Shown here piece after piece: positions 502-20,522 of a DNA stretch of 64,000 nucleotides (within the stretch, counting starts at the first letter, position 1; the number at the start of each line of letters is the position of its first letter). Below the pieces are notes generated by a model that worked only from the letters and a program-made list of their open reading frames with translations, was not told the DNA's origin and searched no databases. Source of the stretch: Gammaproteobacteria bacterium (GTDB taxonomy: Bacteria; Pseudomonadota; Gammaproteobacteria; GCA-002705445; GCA-002716945); the NCBI GenBank assembly GCA_047611265.1, contig JBLFWM010000004.1:4771-68770 (forward strand), read 5' to 3'. The position numbers and the translations under genes were made by a program.

Positions 502-950
502 TGGATGAATGTATATTCAAAACTAAATTGGCAAATGTACTAATCCAAGTAGAAGATAAGTTAGTAACAAAGATTTGCTTTACTAAAAGAAAAATTAAAC
601 TATCTAAGCATCCCCACTTAATAAATGCTAAAAAACAGGTAATTGAGTATACCCAAGGTAAAAGAAAAATATTTACTTTTAAACTAAATCCAAAAGGCAC
701 CTTATACCAAAAGAAAGTCTGGCAAGAATTGCAAAAAATACCGTACGGGGAATCTGTTTATTATTCTTCTATAGCAGAGAAAATACAAAGCTCACCCAGA
801 GCAGTAGGCAATGCATGTGGAGCTAATAAGTGTTTACTTATAGTACCCTGCCATCGTGTAGTTTCTAAGAATAATAATAAAAACAATAAGTTTTCTAGTT
901 TTGGTGGATTAATACATAAAAATAAGTTGCTTAGGCTTGAAATTTATTAG
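501..950 (+). CDS. ogt: methylated-DNA--protein-cysteine methyltransferase (Ogt/MGMT)
   Basis: Canonical active-site motif IVPCHRVV, with a preceding SPRAVGNACGAN helix-turn-helix segment. Start taken at the ATG at 501 (MDECIF...), not the longer ORF start at 471. Confidence 0.8.
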   Translation: MDECIFKTKLANVLIQVEDKLVTKICFTKRKIKLSKHPHLINAKKQVIEYTQGKRKIFTFKLNPKGTLYQKKVWQELQKIPYGESVYYSSIAEKIQSSPRAVGNACGANKCLLIVPCHRVVSKNNNKNNKFSSFGGLIHKNKLLRLEIY

Positions 951-984
951 ATTTCCATGTTATTTTGAACTTAAGGGGTAATTT

Positions 985-1893
985 ATGAATTTGATAAGAG
1001 CGTCAGTGCTGCTATTTTTTTCGAATGTTGTGATGGCTGGTGGTGCTATAAAATCTGCAATAGAATCAAATGCCTATAATGCTACAAACCAAGCATTTAG
1101 TCATGGTAATTCCGCAATTGAATCATGGGCGCGAGATAATATTTCTAGCCTTCGTTTAATAGAACTCGAGACAAAGATAAGAGATTCTGCTAAACCTCAT
1201 TTTAGATTACTCAGTGTATTTGAATTAACTGGTAATGATCATAATGCATTGTTAAGTCAATTTTCTTTCTCTACATTTGATGATAGAGAAACTCTTAATG
1301 CTGGAATTGTATATAGAACATTTAACTCAAATAAAACTGTTTTATATGGAACAAACCTTTTCTTTGATAAACAACTTCATACAGGCCACCAAAGACTTGG
1401 AATAGGTTTTGAAGTAAAATCTTCCGCATATGACTTTAATCTTAATTTTTATGAAGCACAATCTGATAGGCATCAAATTGGTGGAGTCCCTGAGGTTGCA
1501 GCTTCTGGATATGATGCTGAAATAGGAATGGCAATGCCTTATCTTCCATGGGCAAAACTTTATTATAAAACTTATCAGTGGAGCAGCGAAACACTTGATA
1601 TAAAGAATGGAGAAAACCTAAGTATTTATATGGAACCAACATCTAAATTTTCTATAGAAGCAGGTAGACAAAATGACAGTAACACAGCAGGAGTTAAATC
1701 CTATGTTAAATTCAATTACATTATTTGTTGTGGTGACGAGAATAGCAGACCTTCATTGTTTACCGTATCATCGAAAGCATTTAATTATGCTCCTCTAGAT
1801 AATAGACGTATGTATGAAAAAGTAAGAAGGGAAAATAATATAATTGTACTCAGAGGCGGCGGCGGAGTAGACGTAACAGCAAGTGGATATTAG
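985..1893 (+). CDS. inverse-autotransporter (intimin/invasin family) outer-membrane beta-barrel domain protein without a passenger
   Basis: N-terminal signal peptide. Segment HQRLGIGFEV...ASGYDAEIGMAMPYLPWAKLYYKTYQW...SIEAGRQ...KFNY aligns with the intimin beta-domain region (recalled from memory, not database-checked) NGWDIRAEGYLPAYPQLGAKLMYEQYYGDEV...TIGAEHKQG...LNY. The ORF ends about 40 aa after the barrel, so no Ig/lectin passenger is present. Confidence 0.6.
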   Translation: MNLIRASVLLFFSNVVMAGGAIKSAIESNAYNATNQAFSHGNSAIESWARDNISSLRLIELETKIRDSAKPHFRLLSVFELTGNDHNALLSQFSFSTFDDRETLNAGIVYRTFNSNKTVLYGTNLFFDKQLHTGHQRLGIGFEVKSSAYDFNLNFYEAQSDRHQIGGVPEVAASGYDAEIGMAMPYLPWAKLYYKTYQWSSETLDIKNGENLSIYMEPTSKFSIEAGRQNDSNTAGVKSYVKFNYIICCGDENSRPSLFTVSSKAFNYAPLDNRRMYEKVRRENNIIVLRGGGGVDVTASGY

Positions 1894-1894
1894 A

Positions 1895-2746
1895 ATGAAA
1901 AAAATTATACCTATATATTTAATGATTATGACATCTGTGTTTCTAATCACACCAAATAGTGCTCATGCGGAGTGTGCTATTGACGGGAGTGATGTTGTGA
2001 CAGTAACTGATAATAACTGTTCAGTCCAACCCGCTAGTTATGGTATCACCATGTATCAATTATATTTATGCACATCAGCGCCAACTGCTCCAACGACTTC
2101 GGCAGCTGGAGTTTATACTTCATGCAATCTAGTTCTTAGTTTAGATTCTGGAAGCAGAGTAGACATGACTGGGACTGGTAATGCAGGATCTTTTCCTGGA
2201 GCAACTTTTACGCGTCCTCCTCCTGCAACATATACACATGGCTACATGTTATTAGATAATGTGTTCTATGTTAAACATGCTGCTAAATTCAATGAATCAA
2301 AAGAGGGATCAAAATCTGGAACTGATAATGGCGTATTTTGCGCAACAGAAGCAGGAACAGGAGATGAAAGCACTGGAGCATCGACTTCATGCGGTTCTTC
2401 TGCAATAACAGCAGGTGAATGGGGAGCTCAGCTAACAAGTTTTAATGGTTCGGCGTCTTGCGTTGCTACTGTATCAGTAAGTAATTTAGGTAGCACAAGT
2501 AACAGCATTACGGGTGTTCTTGAAACTAGCGCAGGAATAAGAACTGCAGATTGCTCAGATGTTGATAAGCTAGCAGGTATTCAGACATTTGGAACACCAA
2601 TTGTTATCACTAAGGATTTAAAATCATTTAATGTCGCATTTCAAGTGAGCGAGGGCATGACGATTTGGGAAAATGGCGCTACACCACCAGTAATTAATAT
2701 GGGTAGTGGGCCGTTTCAAGCGATAATCACAACAACAGATTATTAA
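1895..2746 (+). CDS. secreted Cys-rich, Thr/Ser/Gly-rich protein of unknown function
   Basis: ATG at 1895 lies 1 nt after the upstream stop. Clear Sec signal peptide (MKKIIPIYLMIMTSVFLITPNSAHA), about 10 Cys, low-complexity T/S/G tracts. No recognisable enzyme motif. Confidence 0.5.
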   Translation: MKKIIPIYLMIMTSVFLITPNSAHAECAIDGSDVVTVTDNNCSVQPASYGITMYQLYLCTSAPTAPTTSAAGVYTSCNLVLSLDSGSRVDMTGTGNAGSFPGATFTRPPPATYTHGYMLLDNVFYVKHAAKFNESKEGSKSGTDNGVFCATEAGTGDESTGASTSCGSSAITAGEWGAQLTSFNGSASCVATVSVSNLGSTSNSITGVLETSAGIRTADCSDVDKLAGIQTFGTPIVITKDLKSFNVAFQVSEGMTIWENGATPPVINMGSGPFQAIITTTDY

Positions 2747-2761
2747 TTTATATCTATAATA

Positions 2762-2983
2762 TTAGCTAACAAAACCCTTTATCGGCTTCATGAAAGCACT
2801 GATAATTTCTTCCTGATTCATATAAACAAAATAAAAATAAAAAAGAACAGAGAATACTCCAACAATTTTCTTATTAATAATTTTATCTAATCTAGAAAAT
2901 ACACATAGACATTGAGCAAAAGTATATGCGAAATATCCAATAGCCCCAAAAAATAAAAACCCAATTAAACCTAAAATAATCAT
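2762..2983 (-). CDS. small two-helix membrane protein (hypothetical)
   Basis: 73-aa ORF with two hydrophobic helices, downstream of the lipoprotein and ispA on the same strand. Confidence 0.3.
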   Translation of the reverse strand: MIILGLIGFLFFGAIGYFAYTFAQCLCVFSRLDKIINKKIVGVFSVLFYFYFVYMNQEEIISAFMKPIKGFVS

Positions 2984-3004
2984 AATTACAAGATAACTAG
3001 TTTC

Positions 3005-3433
3005 CTATTCTAAAACAACTGTAATTTTTCTATTTAGATCGCAGGTGGCTTGGTCGTATCTCAAAAAGTTCATAAATGCACCCATTGGAGTTATAGAGTC
3101 AACAGCACGATCAAATAAATAGCCTAGTCCAGAAGTAATAAGCATGTTTCCTGTTTCGCTACCATTAGTTTCTTCGATAATGCCATGACTACCATATAAG
3201 TCTCCTGCTTTACAAACAACATTAATTGATGAGCACGCAGTGTTGAATATAATTTTTTTTGGAGACAAGATATCAAGCTTAGAAGAGGATGAATATAAAC
3301 TGCATACCGCATCAATAGGCTTTTTTTCAATATCAAGTGTAACTAAGTTAATATTCAACGAATATTCTTTTGGTTGCAGCGACGCGCAAGAAGTTAATAA
3401 CAGCAAGAAAGAGCATAAGGTTGTTTTTATCAT
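3005..3433 (-). CDS. lipoprotein (hypothetical)
   Basis: Signal peptide with lipobox LLLTSC. 142 aa, no known motif. Confidence 0.4.
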   Translation of the reverse strand: MIKTTLCSFLLLLTSCASLQPKEYSLNINLVTLDIEKKPIDAVCSLYSSSSKLDILSPKKIIFNTACSSINVVCKAGDLYGSHGIIEETNGSETGNMLITSGLGYLFDRAVDSITPMGAFMNFLRYDQATCDLNRKITVVLE

Positions 3434-3450
3434 TATTAACTTTCCCTATA

Positions 3451-4335
3451 CTAACTTACCCTATCTATTACATTATAAATAAATATATTAAACAGATTTT
3501 CAGGATTCCTGAAAGCTGTTGTTTTTATAGTAGCACTGTCTGCTAGTTTTTTGCAATACACTTTAACTTCCTCAGGAGCCTTATATTTCATAATACTTCC
3601 TTTATTTTTCTTGAGGTCTTTTTGTGTTTTTTTACCCATAATACTTTTTTGACCTTCATAATCTAATAGGTCATCTGTTGCCTGAAATATTAAACCAAAA
3701 TTTTTTCCATATTTTCGATACTCCTTTTCTCTTATCAAGGTATTTTTACCAGATAATATTAATGGTGATAGCATGCAGAATTCAAAAAGTTTTGCTGTTT
3801 TCAAATCATGCATCATTATGACTTCTTTTTCAGACACAGTTTTTTTTTCATAAAGCAAGTCTAGCGACTGCCCTCCCGCAAGACCACTTGATCCAGACAT
3901 TTTAGCCAGATTAGTTATCAACCCTAATCTGATTTTAGAATTAATATGGGTTTTAGAATCTGCCAGTAACTCAAAAGCAAGCGTTAAAAGGCTATTCCCT
4001 GCTAGTATTGCAACAGCTTCCCCAAACTTTTTATGCGTAGTTGGTTTACCTCTTCTAAGATCATCGTTATCCATTCCTGGTAGATCATCATGAATTAATG
4101 AATATGCATGCACAAACTCTACAGCAAGCGCTAATCTCATATAATTCGATTTTTTTATTTTTAATAGTTTAGATAATTCTATCACCAAGAAAGGTCTTAC
4201 TCTTTTGCCACCATTAACTACTCCGTAATTCATGGCATCCCATAAAGTAGTCCCATCTTTTTTTGAAAATAAAAACTTTTTTGCGTAATTATTGAAGTCT
4301 GTTGTAGTCTTTTTTAATTGTACTTTTAAGCTCAT
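3451..4335 (-). CDS. ispA: polyprenyl (farnesyl/geranyl) diphosphate synthase
   Basis: First and second aspartate-rich motifs (LIHDDLPGMDNDDLRRG and FQATDDLLDY) typical of trans-isoprenyl diphosphate synthases. Confidence 0.85.
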   Translation of the reverse strand: MSLKVQLKKTTTDFNNYAKKFLFSKKDGTTLWDAMNYGVVNGGKRVRPFLVIELSKLLKIKKSNYMRLALAVEFVHAYSLIHDDLPGMDNDDLRRGKPTTHKKFGEAVAILAGNSLLTLAFELLADSKTHINSKIRLGLITNLAKMSGSSGLAGGQSLDLLYEKKTVSEKEVIMMHDLKTAKLFEFCMLSPLILSGKNTLIREKEYRKYGKNFGLIFQATDDLLDYEGQKSIMGKKTQKDLKKNKGSIMKYKAPEEVKVYCKKLADSATIKTTAFRNPENLFNIFIYNVIDRVS

Positions 4336-4422
4336 ATGTAAATTAGTATTTGTTGATATAACGATATAGATTTTAACACATATTAATTTACTAATTATAA
4401 AAATTTAGGATATGATTGTTTA

Positions 4423-4653
4423 ATGTCGGAAAGAAAACTTATAGATGCAAGAGGGGCTGCATGCCCTGGACCAATGATGGAACTTATAGCAATGTTAAAG
4501 CTCATTGAAATAGGTGATGAAATTGAATTACTATCTAATGATCCTGGTACTGCATCAGATGTGCCAACCTGGTGTCAAAAAGTTGGCCATACATTAATAA
4601 GTAAGACTAAAGAAGAAGACCACTGGGCTTTAGTGGTGAGTCGCGCAAAATAA
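4423..4653 (+). CDS. tusA: TusA-family sulfur carrier protein
   Basis: 76 aa with the CPGP active-site motif (ARGAACPGPMMEL) of TusA/SirA sulfurtransferases. Confidence 0.8.
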   Translation: MSERKLIDARGAACPGPMMELIAMLKLIEIGDEIELLSNDPGTASDVPTWCQKVGHTLISKTKEEDHWALVVSRAK

Positions 4654-4678
4654 AATTAATCTATAGGGGTATAGGGGT

Positions 4679-5818
4679 ATGAAAAGAATATTGGTAATTG
4701 GCGGCGGCATGGCTGGCTCAATTGTAGCAAACGGTCTTGCAAGAAAACTTAATACAGAATTAAATAATGGTACTACTGAAATAACTGTTATATCAGCAAC
4801 AGACAAACATCTTTATCAACCAGGACTATTATATTTAACTTTTGGGCGTGTGACTGAAAGTGAATTAATTAGAGACCAAAGAAGTATACTAGACAAACGT
4901 ATAAAATTTCATGTTGATCCGGCAACTAAAATTGATGCGGATGCTAAAAAAGTTACCACACAATCTGGGAAAACTCATGAATGTGATTATATGGTAATTG
5001 CTACTGGTTCTAGATTAGTTCCAGAAACTGTACCAGGGTTGGCAGAAGGAGCTCATAACTTCTATTCTGTAGAAGGTGCTAAGAAACTTAGAGATACATT
5101 AAAAGCATTTAAAGGTGGGAAAGTGGTCGTGAATGTTAATGCGCCACACAAATGCCCAGTAGCTCCAATAGAAATTACATGTATGTTGCATGATTTCTTA
5201 GGCGAACAAGGAGTTCTAGATAAATCAGAAATTATGTACACATATCCAGTGGGAAGAGTACATGCTATGCAACCAGTAGCAGATTGGGCTGCTCCAGAGT
5301 TTGAAAAGTTAGGTATAAAAAGCGAGACACTCTTTAATACTAAAGAAGTTGATCCAGTCAAAAAAACAATTACATCGGAAGAAGGCGTTACATTAAACTA
5401 TGACCTTCTAATAACTATACCTCCTCATAAAGGACAACAAGTGGTTGAGGATTCAATAGAGGGAGCGGCTGGTGGCTGGGCTCCAACTGATAAGAAAAAA
5501 TTATATCTTGAAGGAAAAACAGATGTATTTATTTGTGGCGATACTACAAATATTCCAATATCAAAAGCTGGATCAACAGCACATTTTGAAGCGGATACAA
5601 TTGTTGATAATATAAGCTCACTAATTAAAGAAGGTACAATGGCTAGAGACTATGACGGTAAAGTGTTTTGCTTCATAGAAACAGGTAAAGAAGAGGGTTC
5701 GTATGTTTGGTTTAATTATACTACACCGCCGGCACCTGGTCTTCCAACCAAAGCTGTTCATAGATTTAAATTAGCGTATAACAAGATGTACTGGTTATCT
5801 GCTAAAGGAATGTTATAG
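4679..5818 (+). CDS. FAD-dependent pyridine nucleotide-disulfide oxidoreductase, sulfide:quinone oxidoreductase-like
   Basis: N-terminal dinucleotide fold VIGGGMAGS. KCPVAP motif resembling the SQR/FCSD conserved Cys region. C-terminal FICGDTT FAD motif. Sits between TusA and a DUF1641 gene. Confidence 0.55.
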   Translation: MKRILVIGGGMAGSIVANGLARKLNTELNNGTTEITVISATDKHLYQPGLLYLTFGRVTESELIRDQRSILDKRIKFHVDPATKIDADAKKVTTQSGKTHECDYMVIATGSRLVPETVPGLAEGAHNFYSVEGAKKLRDTLKAFKGGKVVVNVNAPHKCPVAPIEITCMLHDFLGEQGVLDKSEIMYTYPVGRVHAMQPVADWAAPEFEKLGIKSETLFNTKEVDPVKKTITSEEGVTLNYDLLITIPPHKGQQVVEDSIEGAAGGWAPTDKKKLYLEGKTDVFICGDTTNIPISKAGSTAHFEADTIVDNISSLIKEGTMARDYDGKVFCFIETGKEEGSYVWFNYTTPPAPGLPTKAVHRFKLAYNKMYWLSAKGML

Positions 5819-5827
5819 GGGAACAAT

Positions 5828-6181
5828 ATGGAAAATATGAAAGGGGTATCAGAAATAGAAAGGTTTATGCAAGCAGGTTCTGACGCATTAACAGATAATA
5901 TTACTGAAAGACTAGCAACTACGGCAGCGAATGGGCTAGAAGCTGTTGACAAACTTAATGATCCAGATATTAGAGAAGGTGTAATTAAATTATTAGACTT
6001 AATCGGAAATCTGAATCGTTCTGGAGCAATAGATGAGCTTGGTAAAGTAGCAGAAATGACCGCGAAGCAAGAATGCAAAGGCGGTATTTTTTCTACAATT
6101 TCTATGCTTGGGAAACCAGAAACACAAAGAAGTTTACAATTTTTACTAAATGCTTGCGCTTGCTTACAAAAATGTAAATAA
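5828..6181 (+). CDS. DUF1641-family protein, usual partner of SQR-like / NADH-dehydrogenase-like flavoproteins
   Basis: 117-aa acidic helical protein with a C-terminal Cys cluster. Position directly after the flavoprotein matches the known DUF1641 pairing. Confidence 0.5.
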   Translation: MENMKGVSEIERFMQAGSDALTDNITERLATTAANGLEAVDKLNDPDIREGVIKLLDLIGNLNRSGAIDELGKVAEMTAKQECKGGIFSTISMLGKPETQRSLQFLLNACACLQKCK

Positions 6182-6202
6182 ATAATTTCTTACTGATACT
6201 AA

Positions 6203-6240
6203 TAAACCATATCTTTAATAAGATATGGTTTATTTTTTTG
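6203..6240 (+). terminator. rho-independent terminator after the TusA / SQR-like / DUF1641 unit
   Basis: Perfect 12-bp stem AAACCATATCTT / AAGATATGGTTT with a 5-nt loop, followed by TATTTTTTT. Confidence 0.7.
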
Positions 6241-19331: not shown

Positions 19332-20522
19332 ATGAATATTGCTATGAAAAATCTAAAACATTACCTGCTAACCCTATTTTTACTGTCTCAATTAAGTGTC
19401 ACAACAACTACTATTAAAGCTGATGAAACTGTGCCAGCACAGAATATAGCTCAATTCGTAGATGTATTTAAACGAATAAAAGAGCAATACGTAGAGGAAA
19501 TAGATGATGAGAAGCTCTTTAAGGCAGCTATTAAAGGCATGGTTTCAGGACTTGACCCGCATTCAGCCTTTCTTACAAATGATGACTTCAATGAGTTGAA
19601 AATTGGAACAACAGGAAAGTTTGGTGGCCTTGGTATTGAAATAACTACTGAAGATGGCTATGTAAAAGTAATAACTCCAATAGATGATACTCCTGCAGAA
19701 AGAGCTGGGATTTTAGCTGGTGACTTAATTGTTAAGGTTGGAGATGAATCTGTTAAAAACATGGAAATTGGTGATGCAGTAAAACTAATGAGAGGTGAGC
19801 CTGGGACAAAAATCCAAATTACTGTTCTAAGAAAAAAAGTAGATGAACCTTTAATATTTGATATCACACGACAAATAATTGTATCTAAGGGAATTAAATT
19901 TAAAGTTTTTGATAATATTGGCTATGTTAGACTTGCAAGCTTTCAATCAAATTCAACAAATGACCTAAAAAGTGCAATATATAAATTAAAAAAATTAAGT
20001 CCAACACCAATAGATGGTCTTATACTGGATTTACGTAATAACCCAGGCGGGGTACTAGGTGCTGCTGTAGGGATTACCGATCTATTTTTGCAAGAAGGAA
20101 AAATAGTTTATACAAATGGAAGGACAATGAATTCTAAGCTTGAATACTTTGCTACTCCTCAGGACATATTAAATGGTTTACCCTTGGTTATTATGATTAA
20201 TGGGGGTTCTGCATCTGCTTCAGAAATTGTGGCAGGCGCTCTTCAAGATAATAAAAGAGCAACAATAGTTGGGAATAAGTCCTACGGCAAAGCTTCTGTT
20301 CAAACTATTCAAGAATTATCAGATGGCTCTGCTCTTAAATTAACTACGGCTCGCTACTATACTCCTTTAGGTAGAGATATTCATACATTAGGAATAACTC
20401 CAGACATTATTGTTGAATATGAAAAAGATAAATTAGTTGAATTACCTGACCCATATAATGCAGATAACCAGTTATTTGAAACTATTAAAATAGCTACAGG
20501 GATGAAAGCTGTTTCTCAATAA
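19332..20522 (+). CDS. ctpA: carboxy-terminal processing protease (S41 family)
   Basis: Signal peptide, PDZ domain, S41 catalytic region (NGGSASASEIVAGAL... K). Confidence 0.85.
   Translation: MNIAMKNLKHYLLTLFLLSQLSVTTTTIKADETVPAQNIAQFVDVFKRIKEQYVEEIDDEKLFKAAIKGMVSGLDPHSAFLTNDDFNELKIGTTGKFGGLGIEITTEDGYVKVITPIDDTPAERAGILAGDLIVKVGDESVKNMEIGDAVKLMRGEPGTKIQITVLRKKVDEPLIFDITRQIIVSKGIKFKVFDNIGYVRLASFQSNSTNDLKSAIYKLKKLSPTPIDGLILDLRNNPGGVLGAAVGITDLFLQEGKIVYTNGRTMNSKLEYFATPQDILNGLPLVIMINGGSASASEIVAGALQDNKRATIVGNKSYGKASVQTIQELSDGSALKLTTARYYTPLGRDIHTLGITPDIIVEYEKDKLVELPDPYNADNQLFETIKIATGMKAVSQ

What the first reader, a model, noticed from the sequence alone, without database searches (positions are those of the whole stretch)
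985..2746. Passenger-less inverse-autotransporter beta-barrel tightly coupled to a separately secreted Cys-rich protein
ORF 985-1893 carries a signal peptide and a region that aligns convincingly with the intimin/invasin beta-domain (for example ASGYDAEIGMAMPYLPWAKLYYKTYQW versus NGWDIRAEGYLPAYPQLGAKLMYEQYYG, and EAGRQ...KFNY versus GAEHKQG...LNY). It terminates about 40 residues after the barrel, with no Ig-like or lectin passenger and no LysM. One nucleotide after its stop begins a gene for a 283-aa protein with its own Sec signal peptide and about 10 Cys in a Thr/Ser/Gly-rich sequence. An inverse-autotransporter barrel whose cargo is encoded as a separate, independently exported polypeptide would be an unusual split (two-partner-like) architecture. 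Alternatively the barrel is an orphan porin-like remnant of a surface adhesin.
Basis: partly seen in the sequence, partly recalled or inferred. Interest (0 to 1): 0.7.

Follow-up and report, generated by a model that had tools for sequence, protein, structure and literature searches.

The report
Passenger-less intimin-type barrel with secreted partner
A marine bacterium carries a minimal outer-membrane barrel of the intimin/invasin type with no adhesin attached, always followed directly by a gene for a separately exported, disulfide-rich protein of unknown fold; the pair recalls the Salmonella ZirT/ZirS secretion pair, is also found in SAR11 (Pelagibacter), and its partner gene is swapped between strains like a surface antigen.

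Summary
ORF 985-1893 (302 aa) is a real inverse-autotransporter beta-domain: Pfam IAT_beta E=3.4e-28, and the predicted fold matches invasin 4E1T and intimin 4E1S best. It contains the 12-strand barrel, the periplasmic turn, the conserved pore linker (KVRRENNII) and only about 12-15 further residues, so there is no passenger and no LysM. One nucleotide after its stop, ATG 1895 opens a 283-aa protein with an AHA|E signal peptide. The mature protein has 8 Cys (not about 10) and is 36% Thr+Ser+Gly.

A frameshift or gene remnant is excluded. All listed barrel homologues are about 280-315 aa, both genes are under purifying selection, and independent assemblies show the same junction.

The pair is a unit. 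In 71 of 74 testable loci the barrel lies directly upstream, mostly 0-3 nt away. It sits in different genomic contexts in marine Gammaproteobacteria and in Candidatus Pelagibacter.

The partner has no Pfam family and no PDB fold match. It is not Ig-like. Its alleles are replaced or duplicated independently of the barrel.

The two-partner idea is not new: ZirT/ZirS, and Heinz et al. 2016. That the barrel exports the partner is inferred, not shown. Verdict: a new variant of a known kind, of moderate to good interest.

The parts
937..966 (+). Weak sigma-70-like promoter match (TTGAAA-18-TATTTT, TG-extended) just upstream of ORF1. Tentative only.
   Evidence: The number of such matches in the region is not above the shuffled expectation, so this is only a candidate.
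985..1893 (+). ORF1: a passenger-less inverse-autotransporter (type Ve) beta-domain protein of 302 aa.
   Evidence: Pfam IAT_beta E=3.4e-28. Family profile hits invasin 4E1T and intimin 4E1S. AF2 model has pLDDT 73.6 and 12 strands. Foldseek top hits are 4E1T (E=9e-14, TM 0.81) and 4E1S. Identical to NCBI MFT4517156.1, 'hypothetical protein [Gammaproteobacteria bacterium]'.
985..1038 (+). ORF1 signal peptide (aa 1-18, MNLIRASVLLFFSNVVMA|GG).
   Evidence: Read from the sequence: n-, h- and c-regions are present. A18 and G19 are nearly invariant in the family. No signal-peptide predictor was available.
1150..1728 (+). The 12-stranded transmembrane beta-barrel (aa 56-248). Extracellular loops L1-L5 are short and conserved. 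A vicinal Cys pair (C248-C249) straddles the end of the last strand.
   Evidence: DSSP of the AF2 model. Region entropies are 0.64-0.89 bits for loops L1-L5, the same as the strands. C248 and C249 are invariant in the gammaproteobacterial family and absent in the SAR11 form.
1729..1845 (+). Variable periplasmic turn (aa 249-274), then the short helix and pore-traversing linker RMYEKVRRENNII (aa 275-287). This linker is the most conserved segment of the protein.
   Evidence: Aligns to invasin RYNLVDRNNNIV. This corresponds to the intimin alpha-helical turn 412-430 and linker 434-444 (PMC13078405). Entropy is 0.18 bits.
1846..1890 (+). Linker-end beta-strand (VLR), a GGGG turn and a terminal strand VDVTASGY. 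This is all that remains of a 'passenger'. The end motif [ST]-G-hydrophobic is conserved in most relatives examined, including distant ones.
   Evidence: The AF2 model shows a strand at 288-290, and residues 292-302 have low confidence.
1895..2746 (+). ORF2: a separately Sec-exported, disulfide-rich, all-beta protein of 283 aa. It is the barrel's obligate partner and putative cargo.
1895..1969 (+). ORF2 signal peptide (aa 1-25, ...TPNSAHA|ECAIDG). Signal peptidase I type, with no lipobox.
   Evidence: Sequence inspection. The family alignment shows a variable hydrophobic N-terminus followed by invariant C27.
2570..2747 (+). The 3' end of ORF2, including the invariant SGPFQ motif (GSGPFQAI in the window). 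This stretch survives as an 85%-identical remnant in the relative L001 and marks one edge of the exchangeable cassette. The other edge is near 1865, at the barrel's 3' end.
   Evidence: blastn of the window against L001; tblastn.

Best explanation
This is a two-gene outer-membrane module of the inverse-autotransporter (type Ve) kind, split into two polypeptides.

ORF1. It is exported by Sec and inserted into the outer membrane as a 12-stranded intimin/invasin-type barrel. Its own C-terminal linker runs through the pore and ends in a roughly 15-residue hairpin-like stub at the cell surface. It carries no passenger. This part is shown by homology and by the fold model.

ORF2. It is translated from the same message, 1 nt downstream. 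It is exported on its own by Sec and cleaved by signal peptidase I. It folds into an all-beta domain held by three or four short-range disulfides. This is shown or strongly indicated by the sequence.

How the two work together. By analogy with ZirT/ZirS, ORF2 is the barrel's dedicated partner. The barrel is needed to bring ORF2 to the cell surface, to hold it there, or to release it. ORF2 probably docks on the barrel's unusually conserved extracellular loops and terminal stub. This step is inferred.

Why ORF2 varies. ORF2 is the exposed, variable component. Its alleles are replaced, transferred and tandemly duplicated between otherwise near-identical strains while the barrel stays constant. 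That pattern fits a surface protein under frequency-dependent pressure from phage or grazers, or one with changing ligand specificity. The ligand or activity of ORF2 is unknown.
For: Barrel identity:
- (Pfam, PDB profile, AF2 model, Foldseek).

Linker and surface stub:
-. The linker is the most conserved segment at 0.18 bits.

Coupling of the two genes:
- A 1-nt gap in the window.
- A gap of 0-3 nt in 51 of 62 full-length pairs, and the barrel directly upstream in 71 of 74 testable loci.
- Three unrelated genomic contexts.
- The pair persists in distant relatives and in Candidatus Pelagibacter.
- Two divergent barrel+partner modules lie side by side in a SAR11 single-cell genome.

Both genes are functional:
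- dN/dS is 0.02-0.29.

ORF2 is extracytoplasmic and probably extracellular:
- It has a signal peptide and six invariant Cys at 15-18-residue spacings.
- Rare relatives are fused to Cadherin-like or BNR/Sortilin-type domains.

ORF2 is the variable, exchanged part:
- L001 vs L017: barrel 97% identical (dS 0.11) but ORF2 45% (dS 2.25).
- L022 vs L031: barrel 70% identical but ORF2 94%; L022 vs L028: barrel dS 1.52 against ORF2 dS 0.32.
- Breakpoints lie at the barrel's 3' end and the ORF2 3' end, with a remnant in L001.
- Tandem extra copies occur in L001, L070, L079, L088 and L093.

Barrel outer loops L1-L5 are as conserved as the strands.

Precedent:
- ZirS secretion depends on ZirT and was reconstituted in E. 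coli (PMC2270342).
- The two-partner IAT model is set out in PMC4943183.
Against: - There is no direct evidence of contact or of barrel-dependent export. A complex prediction could not be run.
- ORF2 is not Ig-like and has no similarity to any part of the barrel protein. In ZirT/ZirS, SinH/SinI and Yfr4/Rat, by contrast, the substrates resemble the translocator's own IgSF domains (PMC4943183). The ZirT-type recognition model therefore cannot apply as proposed.
- The barrel pore is occupied by its own, extremely conserved linker. How a 26-kDa disulfide-bonded protein would cross is unexplained.
- One distant ORF2-family member (P0343, 62% GC contigs) has no adjacent barrel.
- No barrel-ORF2 fusion was found among the 150 best representative clusters.
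- The loop and turn topology rests on an AF2 model with pLDDT 73.6 and on analogy with intimin.
Confidence: 0.5

Rival explanations
1. ORF2 is a periplasmic partner, not cargo. It stays in the periplasm and binds the barrel protein's periplasmic parts: the N-terminal helical region (aa 19-55) or the turn (aa 249-274). The barrel then acts as an outer-membrane anchor or a small channel, and the module has a function such as solute or metal capture or envelope tethering.
For: - ORF2 has only a Sec signal, and nothing in it identifies an outer-membrane translocation signal.
- The barrel pore is plugged by its own conserved linker.
- Disulfide-bonded folded proteins are poor type V substrates (established knowledge of autotransporters, from memory).
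- A barrel-less distant homologue sits next to CopC and DUF305 genes.
Against: - The barrel's periplasmic turn and N-terminus are among its most variable regions (1.37 and 1.15 bits), whereas the outer loops and the linker are conserved.
- Allele replacement and tandem duplication of ORF2 beside a constant barrel are more typical of exposed surface proteins.
- Rare fusions are to Cadherin-like and BNR domains, which are extracellular-type modules.
Confidence: 0.25
2. The two genes are co-transcribed, but their products do not interact. The barrel-only IAT is a small porin-like or structural outer-membrane protein. ORF2 is an independent secreted or periplasmic protein that merely shares the operon.
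For: - 'invasin_beta-only' proteins exist in several lineages without a defined partner (PMC4943183).
- ORF2 relatives can occur without a barrel.
Against: - Adjacency in 71 of 74 loci with 0-3 nt spacing.
- Retention through context changes and across Alpha- and Gammaproteobacteria with streamlined genomes, including two barrel+partner modules side by side in one SAR11 genome.
- When ORF2 alleles are exchanged, the new allele lands exactly behind the barrel.
Confidence: 0.15
3. This is an artefact or decay product: an ordinary intimin-like adhesin broken by a frameshift or stop at 1891-1894, or a degenerating remnant.
For: Only the 1-nt spacing between the ORFs suggests it.
Against: - All 120 listed barrel homologues are 273-315 aa and carry only PF11924.
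- ORF2 homologues all have their own signal peptide and are about 260-330 aa.
- The independent assembly L014 (100% amino-acid identity for both genes) has the same 1-nt junction, and L015 shows the same layout.
- dN/dS is well below 1 for both genes.
- ORF2 has no Ig-like or lectin fold.
Confidence: 0.02

Closest known systems
ZirT/ZirS(/ZirU) of Salmonella enterica: the 'two-partner inverse autotransporter' (Gal-Mor et al. 2008, PMC2270342; Heinz et al. 2016, PMC4943183)
   Same: - An IAT_beta outer-membrane barrel gene sits immediately upstream of a gene for a protein of about 280 aa. ZirS is 276 aa; ORF2 is 283 aa.
- That protein has its own Sec signal peptide and no barrel.
- The system is autonomous and has two genes.
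   Different: - ZirT is 660 aa and carries IgSF domains, and ZirS and ZirU resemble those domains. Here the barrel protein is 302 aa with no extracellular domain.
- The partner here is a Cys-rich, non-Ig protein with no PDB fold match and no Pfam family.
- The hosts are free-living marine plankton, not an enteric pathogen.
- Partner alleles are exchanged between strains.
- Barrel-dependent secretion is shown for ZirS but not here.
[quoted passage not shown] 2016, PMC4943183)
   Same: The domain architecture is the same: signal peptide, then IAT_beta, then a short tail, with no Big or lectin passenger.
   Different: - In the parts of that paper I read, no non-Ig partner protein or linkage to one was described for these forms, and the paper's dataset came from UniProt.
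- Whether this marine clade belongs to their monophyletic short group could not be tested, because the supplements are not held.
Intimin / invasin (classical type Ve adhesins; structures 4E1S, 4E1T)
   Same: - A 12-strand barrel, a periplasmic helical turn, and a conserved pore linker (R..NNNI) ending in a beta-strand at the extracellular opening.
- These are the best sequence and fold matches.
   Different: - No LysM domain.
- No D00-D3 Ig-like or lectin passenger. The chain ends 12-15 residues after the linker strand.
Classical two-partner secretion (type Vb, TpsB/TpsA, e.g. FhaC/FHA)
   Same: The logic is the same: an outer-membrane transporter and a separately Sec-exported substrate, encoded side by side.
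   Different: - TpsB is a 16-strand Omp85 barrel with POTRA domains, and TpsA has a TPS domain and a beta-helix.
- Neither is present here.

Membership tests
Inverse autotransporter beta-domain family (type Ve; Pfam PF11924 IAT_beta) | A significant match to the IAT_beta profile | tested here: met
   E=3.4e-28 and 99.5 bits against a cut-off of 22.3. A close relative is named 'inverse autotransporter beta domain-containing protein' by NCBI.
Inverse autotransporter beta-domain family (type Ve; Pfam PF11924 IAT_beta) | A 12-stranded barrel fold like intimin and invasin | tested here: met
   The AF2 model has 12 long strands. Foldseek top hits are 4E1T (E=9e-14, TM 0.81) and 4E1S (E=5.5e-13).
Inverse autotransporter beta-domain family (type Ve; Pfam PF11924 IAT_beta) | A C-terminal pore-traversing linker with the conserved Arg/Asn motif and a terminal beta-strand | tested here: met
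   RMYEKVRRENNIIVL aligns to invasin RYNLVDRNNNIV. It is the most conserved segment of the protein. The intimin equivalents are described in PMC13078405.
Inverse autotransporter beta-domain family (type Ve; Pfam PF11924 IAT_beta) | An N-terminal Sec signal peptide | tested here: met
   By inspection only (MNLIRASVLLFFSNVVMA|GG). No predictor was available.
Intimin/invasin-type adhesins (full inverse autotransporters) | A C-terminal secreted passenger of Ig-like (Big) and/or lectin domains on the same polypeptide | tested here: not met
   There is no further Pfam or NCBIfam domain. The protein ends 12-15 residues after the linker strand.
Intimin/invasin-type adhesins (full inverse autotransporters) | A periplasmic LysM domain (present in many members, not all) | tested here: not met
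   No LysM hit. Only about 35 residues lie between the signal peptide and strand 1.
Two-partner inverse autotransporters (ZirT/ZirS-like) | An IAT barrel gene directly followed by a gene for a barrel-less protein with its own Sec signal | tested here: met
   a 1-nt gap in the window, and the barrel directly upstream in 71 of 74 testable loci.
Two-partner inverse autotransporters (ZirT/ZirS-like) | The substrate shares IgSF domains with the translocator's own extracellular region | tested here: not met
Two-partner inverse autotransporters (ZirT/ZirS-like) | Secretion of the partner depends on the barrel protein | not testable with these tools
   This needs expression with and without the barrel, followed by fractionation, as was done for ZirS (PMC2270342).
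Classical two-partner secretion (type Vb) | An Omp85/POTRA transporter and a substrate bearing a TPS domain | tested here: not met
   Neither protein has such a domain.
Pseudogene or remnant of an adhesin | Relaxed selection, variable truncation points, and intact full-length relatives | tested here: not met
   dN/dS is 0.02-0.29. Homologues have uniform lengths of about 300 aa and about 283 aa. No long relatives appear in the lists.

The most novel reading that the evidence does not exclude
The barrel-only IAT plus ORF2 pair is a true minimal two-partner type Ve secretion and display system. Its substrate is unrelated to Ig domains. The barrel, with BAM, exports and then anchors a disulfide-stapled protein of a new fold through its conserved outer loops and C-terminal stub. 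ORF2 is a major exchangeable surface antigen of abundant streamlined marine bacteria (SAR11 and low-GC marine Gammaproteobacteria), for example a variable phage-receptor shield or a ligand binder. This would also support the proposal that barrel-only forms are the ancestral state of inverse autotransporters, with passengers later fused in cis.
Probability: 0.3. Interest if true: 0.75.

Novelty: new variant of a known kind. Interest (0 to 1): 0.55.

Why it matters
- **For type V secretion.** A 302-aa barrel with no passenger and an obligate trans partner is the simplest system in which to test whether an inverse-autotransporter barrel can serve a separate polypeptide. So far that claim rests essentially on ZirT/ZirS. 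Here the partner is not Ig-like, so the proposed Ig-Ig recognition cannot be the general rule.
- **For marine microbiology.** The module is conserved in genome-streamlined plankton, including Candidatus Pelagibacter. Its partner belongs to a large, unannotated family (815 clusters at 50% identity) with no solved-structure relative. The partner behaves like an exchangeable surface cassette, which makes it a candidate factor in phage or grazer interactions and in strain microdiversity.
- **Caveat.** None of the function is demonstrated.

Tried and rejected
- **Frameshift or fused ORF.** Rejected on comparative grounds.
- **Family assignment for ORF2.** Pfam, NCBIfam and PHROGs searches of ORF2, and Pfam on 59 family members, found nothing.
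- **Search for a barrel-ORF2 fusion.** The only long relatives among the top 150 representatives are fused to Cadherin-like or BNR/Sortilin domains, not to a barrel. The remaining 665 hits could not be inspected.
- **Upstream TPR and 257-aa genes.** These appear in one genomic context and were considered as extra components. They were rejected because they are on the opposite strand in L001 and absent in the SAR11 and L095 contexts.
- **ORF2 as a lipoprotein.** Rejected: the residues before C27 do not form a consistent lipobox.
- **ORF2 as a transmembrane barrel.** Rejected: no outer-membrane-protein fold match.
- **Organism identification.** The genome-contig scan with the single protein returned only one locus. 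There is no rRNA or tRNA in the window.
- **Promoter and terminator scan.** Uninformative.
- **Complex prediction.** A model of the barrel-ORF2 complex could not be run with the tools.
Full report
**1. What is in the sequence**

ORF1 runs from ATG 985 to TAG 1891-1893 (302 aa). One nucleotide later, ATG 1895 opens ORF2, which ends at TAA 2744-2746 (283 aa). The window is AT-rich, at 33% GC.

ORF1 begins with a typical signal peptide (MNLIRASVLLFFSNVVMA|GG). ORF2 has one of its own (MKKIIPIYLMIMTSVFLITPNSAHA|ECAIDG). Both were read by eye.

Mature ORF2 is 258 aa, acidic, and 36% Thr+Ser+Gly. It has 8 cysteines, at 27, 42, 59, 77, 149, 166, 189 and 220.

**2. The barrel is a real, complete inverse-autotransporter beta-domain with nothing attached**

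- Pfam IAT_beta (PF11924) matches residues 31-250 at E=3.4e-28 and 99.5 bits, against a cut-off of 22.3. There is no other significant domain match; the only other hit listed is DUF1681 at E=0.097, below its cut-off.
- NCBIfam gives only sub-threshold hits to the N-terminal barrel parts of Inv, YrIlm, SinH, Ilp and YchO.
- A profile of 44 family members hits the crystallised beta-domains of invasin (4E1T, E=7.8e-13) and intimin (4E1S, E=1.9e-8). The invasin alignment runs to the very end of the crystallised construct, where RMYEKVRRENNIV pairs with RYNLVDRNNNIV.
- In intimin this region is the periplasmic alpha-helical turn (412-430), the linker that crosses the pore (434-444) and a short beta-strand (446-449). 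That strand joins loops 4 and 5 in a small sheet at the extracellular opening (PMC13078405).
- The AlphaFold2 model (mean pLDDT 73.6, pTM 0.70) has 12 long strands, a short helix at 273-277 and a strand at 288-290. Its best structural matches are 4E1T (E=9e-14, TM 0.81), 4E1S and 5G26, well ahead of unrelated 12-14-strand porins.

ORF1 therefore contains every element of the IAT beta-domain. It ends only 12-15 residues later, with a GGGG turn and a last strand, VDVTASGY. There is no LysM, no Big or Ig domain and no lectin.

The tail design recurs in the distant relatives examined. It is a linker, a strand, a short turn, and a strand that usually ends in [ST]-G-hydrophobic. Examples are ...VKSKAFSVKAGGF in SAR11...GGFATKVSGI...KIGFNVSGV and ...KKFAATATGI.

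**3. It is not a frameshift or a remnant**

- All 120 listed homologues of ORF1 (241 with E<=1e-3) are 273-315 aa and carry only PF11924.
- Almost all of the 120 listed homologues of ORF2 (330 with E<=1e-3) are 260-297 aa, apart from three fragments, and have no Pfam domain.
- Every family member in the ORF2 alignment with a complete N-terminus has a hydrophobic signal peptide followed by the invariant C27.
- An independent assembly encoding identical proteins (L014 from Tara, 100% identity for both genes) shows the same 1-nt junction, and L015 from JGI shows the same layout.
- Nei-Gojobori dN/dS between related loci is 0.02-0.20 for the barrel and 0.08-0.29 for ORF2. Both genes are maintained by selection.

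**4. The two genes are an obligate unit**

I fetched 80 metagenomic loci encoding ORF2 relatives at 39-100% identity. I scanned them and the other loci with HMMs of both families.

- Of 74 loci with at least 300 nt upstream of ORF2, 71 have the short barrel directly upstream on the same strand.
- The three exceptions are near-identical contigs of a single distant family member.
- The gap between the barrel stop and the ORF2 start is 0-3 nt in 51 of 62 full-length pairs.

The pair sits in at least three unrelated neighbourhoods:

- MORN-Ogt-[pair]-IspA. This is the window, and also L001 and L010.
- DUF1326-TPR-257aa-[pair]-MerC-dihydroorotase (L002-L008).
- MsrB-[pair]-glutaredoxin (L009).

L009's neighbouring genes are exact matches to, or share a 90% cluster with, proteins that NCBI names as Candidatus Pelagibacter sp.. 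So the module is present in SAR11 (Alphaproteobacteria) as well as in the window's organism. The window proteins are exact matches to NCBI records from a Gammaproteobacteria MAG: MFT4517156.1 and MFT4517157.1, both annotated "hypothetical protein".

In a second SAR11 single-cell genome (L098), two barrel+partner modules lie side by side. The second partner is very divergent.

More distant ORF2 relatives, at profile E of about 1e-31 to 1e-38, are also preceded at 3 nt by IAT_beta-only proteins of 324-334 aa.

**5. ORF2 is an unannotated family with no known fold**

- There is no hit in Pfam, NCBIfam or PHROGs, and none for 59 family members scanned individually.
- A full HMMER scan of 1.84 billion representatives finds 815 clusters at E<=1e-3. 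Most of the best 150 are stand-alone proteins of 260-330 aa; the rest are shorter fragments and two long fusions.
- The two long hits are fusions to three Cadherin-like domains (P0354) and to a BNR/Sortilin-like region (P0361). These are extracellular-type modules. Neither is fused to a barrel.
- It is therefore not an Ig/Big domain. This separates it from ZirS/ZirU, SinI and the Rat-like proteins.
- Six cysteines are invariant, spaced 15, 18 and 17 residues apart in consecutive pairs (C27/C42, C59/C77, C149/C166). This is consistent with three short-range disulfides. The window's subfamily adds a fourth pair.

**6. ORF2 is exchanged independently of the barrel**

- Over 62 loci, pairwise barrel and ORF2 identities are only loosely correlated (Spearman 0.36).
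- L001 vs L017: barrels are 97% identical but ORF2 only 45%.
- L022 vs L031: barrels are 70% identical but ORF2 94%.
- Synonymous divergence shows the same thing. For L001 vs L017, barrel dS is 0.11 and ORF2 dS is 2.25. For L022 vs L028, the values are 1.52 and 0.32.
- At the DNA level, the window and L001 are collinear at about 85% identity up to position 1865, which is the barrel's 3' end. L001 then carries two divergent ORF2 copies. It keeps an 85%-identical remnant of the last 178 nt of the window-type ORF2 before collinearity resumes.
- Extra tandem ORF2 copies also occur in L070, L079, L088 and L093.

On the barrel, the linker is the most conserved segment, at 0.18 bits. The predicted extracellular loops L1-L5 are as conserved as the strands, at 0.64-0.89 bits. 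The periplasmic turn 249-274 and turn T1 are the variable parts, at 1.37 and 1.68 bits. This is the reverse of what is usual for outer-membrane proteins. It fits an outer face that is occupied or functionally constrained. The topology assignment, however, rests on the model and on the analogy with intimin.

**7. Interpretation**

What is shown:
- A passenger-less type Ve barrel.
- An independently Sec-exported, disulfide-rich, all-beta partner.
- Translational coupling and near-obligate linkage across two proteobacterial classes.
- Cassette-like turnover of the partner.

What is inferred: the partner depends on the barrel for reaching or staying at the cell surface.

The inference rests on the linkage, on the surface-antigen-like population behaviour, on the conserved outer face of the barrel, on the extracellular-type fusion partners, and on the experimental precedent of ZirT/ZirS. 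ZirS is a 276-aa protein with a Sec signal. It is secreted only when the IAT-type ZirT is present, and this was reproduced in E. coli (PMC2270342).

I give this reading about 0.5. The main rivals are:
- A periplasmic partner, at about 0.25.
- Mere operon-sharing without interaction, at about 0.15.
- An artefact, which is essentially excluded.

The open mechanistic problem is how a 26-kDa protein crosses the outer membrane when the 12-strand pore holds its own, highly conserved linker. Closely spaced cysteines are what type V passengers tolerate (from memory of the autotransporter literature, not tested here). A transient hybrid pore with BamA has been proposed for type V secretion generally (PMC13078405).

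**8. Comparison with what is known, and novelty**

Heinz et al. 2016 (PMC4943183) already describe "invasin_beta-only" proteins with very short C-terminal extensions. They suggest these may be the ancestral form. They also set out a model of "two-partner inverse autotransporters" for ZirT/ZirS/ZirU, SinH/SinI and Yfr4/Rat-like proteins.

What differs here:
- The barrel has no IgSF domain at all.
- The partner is not IgSF and does not resemble any part of the barrel protein.
- The partner belongs to a large family with no annotation and no solved relative.
- The hosts are free-living, genome-streamlined marine bacteria, including SAR11.
- The partner is exchanged like a cassette.

I found no paper in the held library that connects PF11924 with these organisms. 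I therefore rate it a new variant of a known kind, with interest 0.55.

Noticed in passing
window 4394-6217: A TusA-like gene (4423-4653), a sulfide:quinone oxidoreductase (4679-5818) and a 117-aa ORF (5828-6181) are present in the window. They are absent at the same point in the otherwise collinear relatives L001 and L017. This looks like a strain-specific sulfide-oxidation insertion (SQR naming).
   Followed up: partly
L001 6544-9373: In a strain whose barrel is 90-94% identical to the window's, the window-type ORF2 is replaced. In its place are two divergent tandem ORF2 paralogues (43% and 39% identity), an 85%-identical 178-nt remnant of the original 3' end, and an extra 292-aa ORF of unidentified function.
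   Followed up: partly
L098 2107-5867 (SAR11 single-cell genome GCA_902514905.1): Two barrel+partner modules sit in tandem, separated by a glutaredoxin fragment. The first pair is very divergent: its barrel is 34% identical to the second barrel. Its 298-aa partner is only a marginal match to the ORF2 profile but shares the LC..., C... and TYTH motifs. This suggests paralogous module types.
   Followed up: partly
window 1726-1731 (ORF1 C248-C249): An invariant vicinal Cys-Cys pair lies at the predicted periplasmic end of the last barrel strand in all gammaproteobacterial family members. It is absent from the SAR11 form. No explanation was found.
   Followed up: no
L011-L013 (62% GC contigs): A distant ORF2-family member (P0343, 320 aa) stands without an IAT barrel. 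It lies next to CopC, DUF305/DUF4142 and an acetyltransferase. The family therefore also exists outside the barrel pairing.
   Followed up: partly
window 20178-20318 (-): Rfam match to Rp_sR47 (Rickettsia sRNA47) at 60.2 bits, just at the gathering score of 60. It covers only model positions 25-166 of 316 and is probably not a true member.
   Followed up: no
window 2762-3433 (-): Two small genes lie on the opposite strand immediately downstream of ORF2. One is a 73-aa hydrophobic protein. The other is a 142-aa protein with a lipobox-like N-terminus (LLLTSC). They are conserved with the pair in the MORN-Ogt context (L010, JGI contig) but not in the other contexts, so they are probably unrelated.
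   Followed up: partly
L002-L008 about 3700-5960; L001 1720-3847 (-): A TPR protein of about 470 aa and an unannotated protein of about 257 aa precede the pair on the same strand in one context. They are on the opposite strand in L001 and absent in SAR11, so they are not a constant part of the module.
   Followed up: partly
L099 1403-2466: In one metagenomic contig the barrel upstream of ORF2 is called as two fragments of 129 and 159 aa. This is either a sequencing error or a disrupted copy.
   Followed up: no
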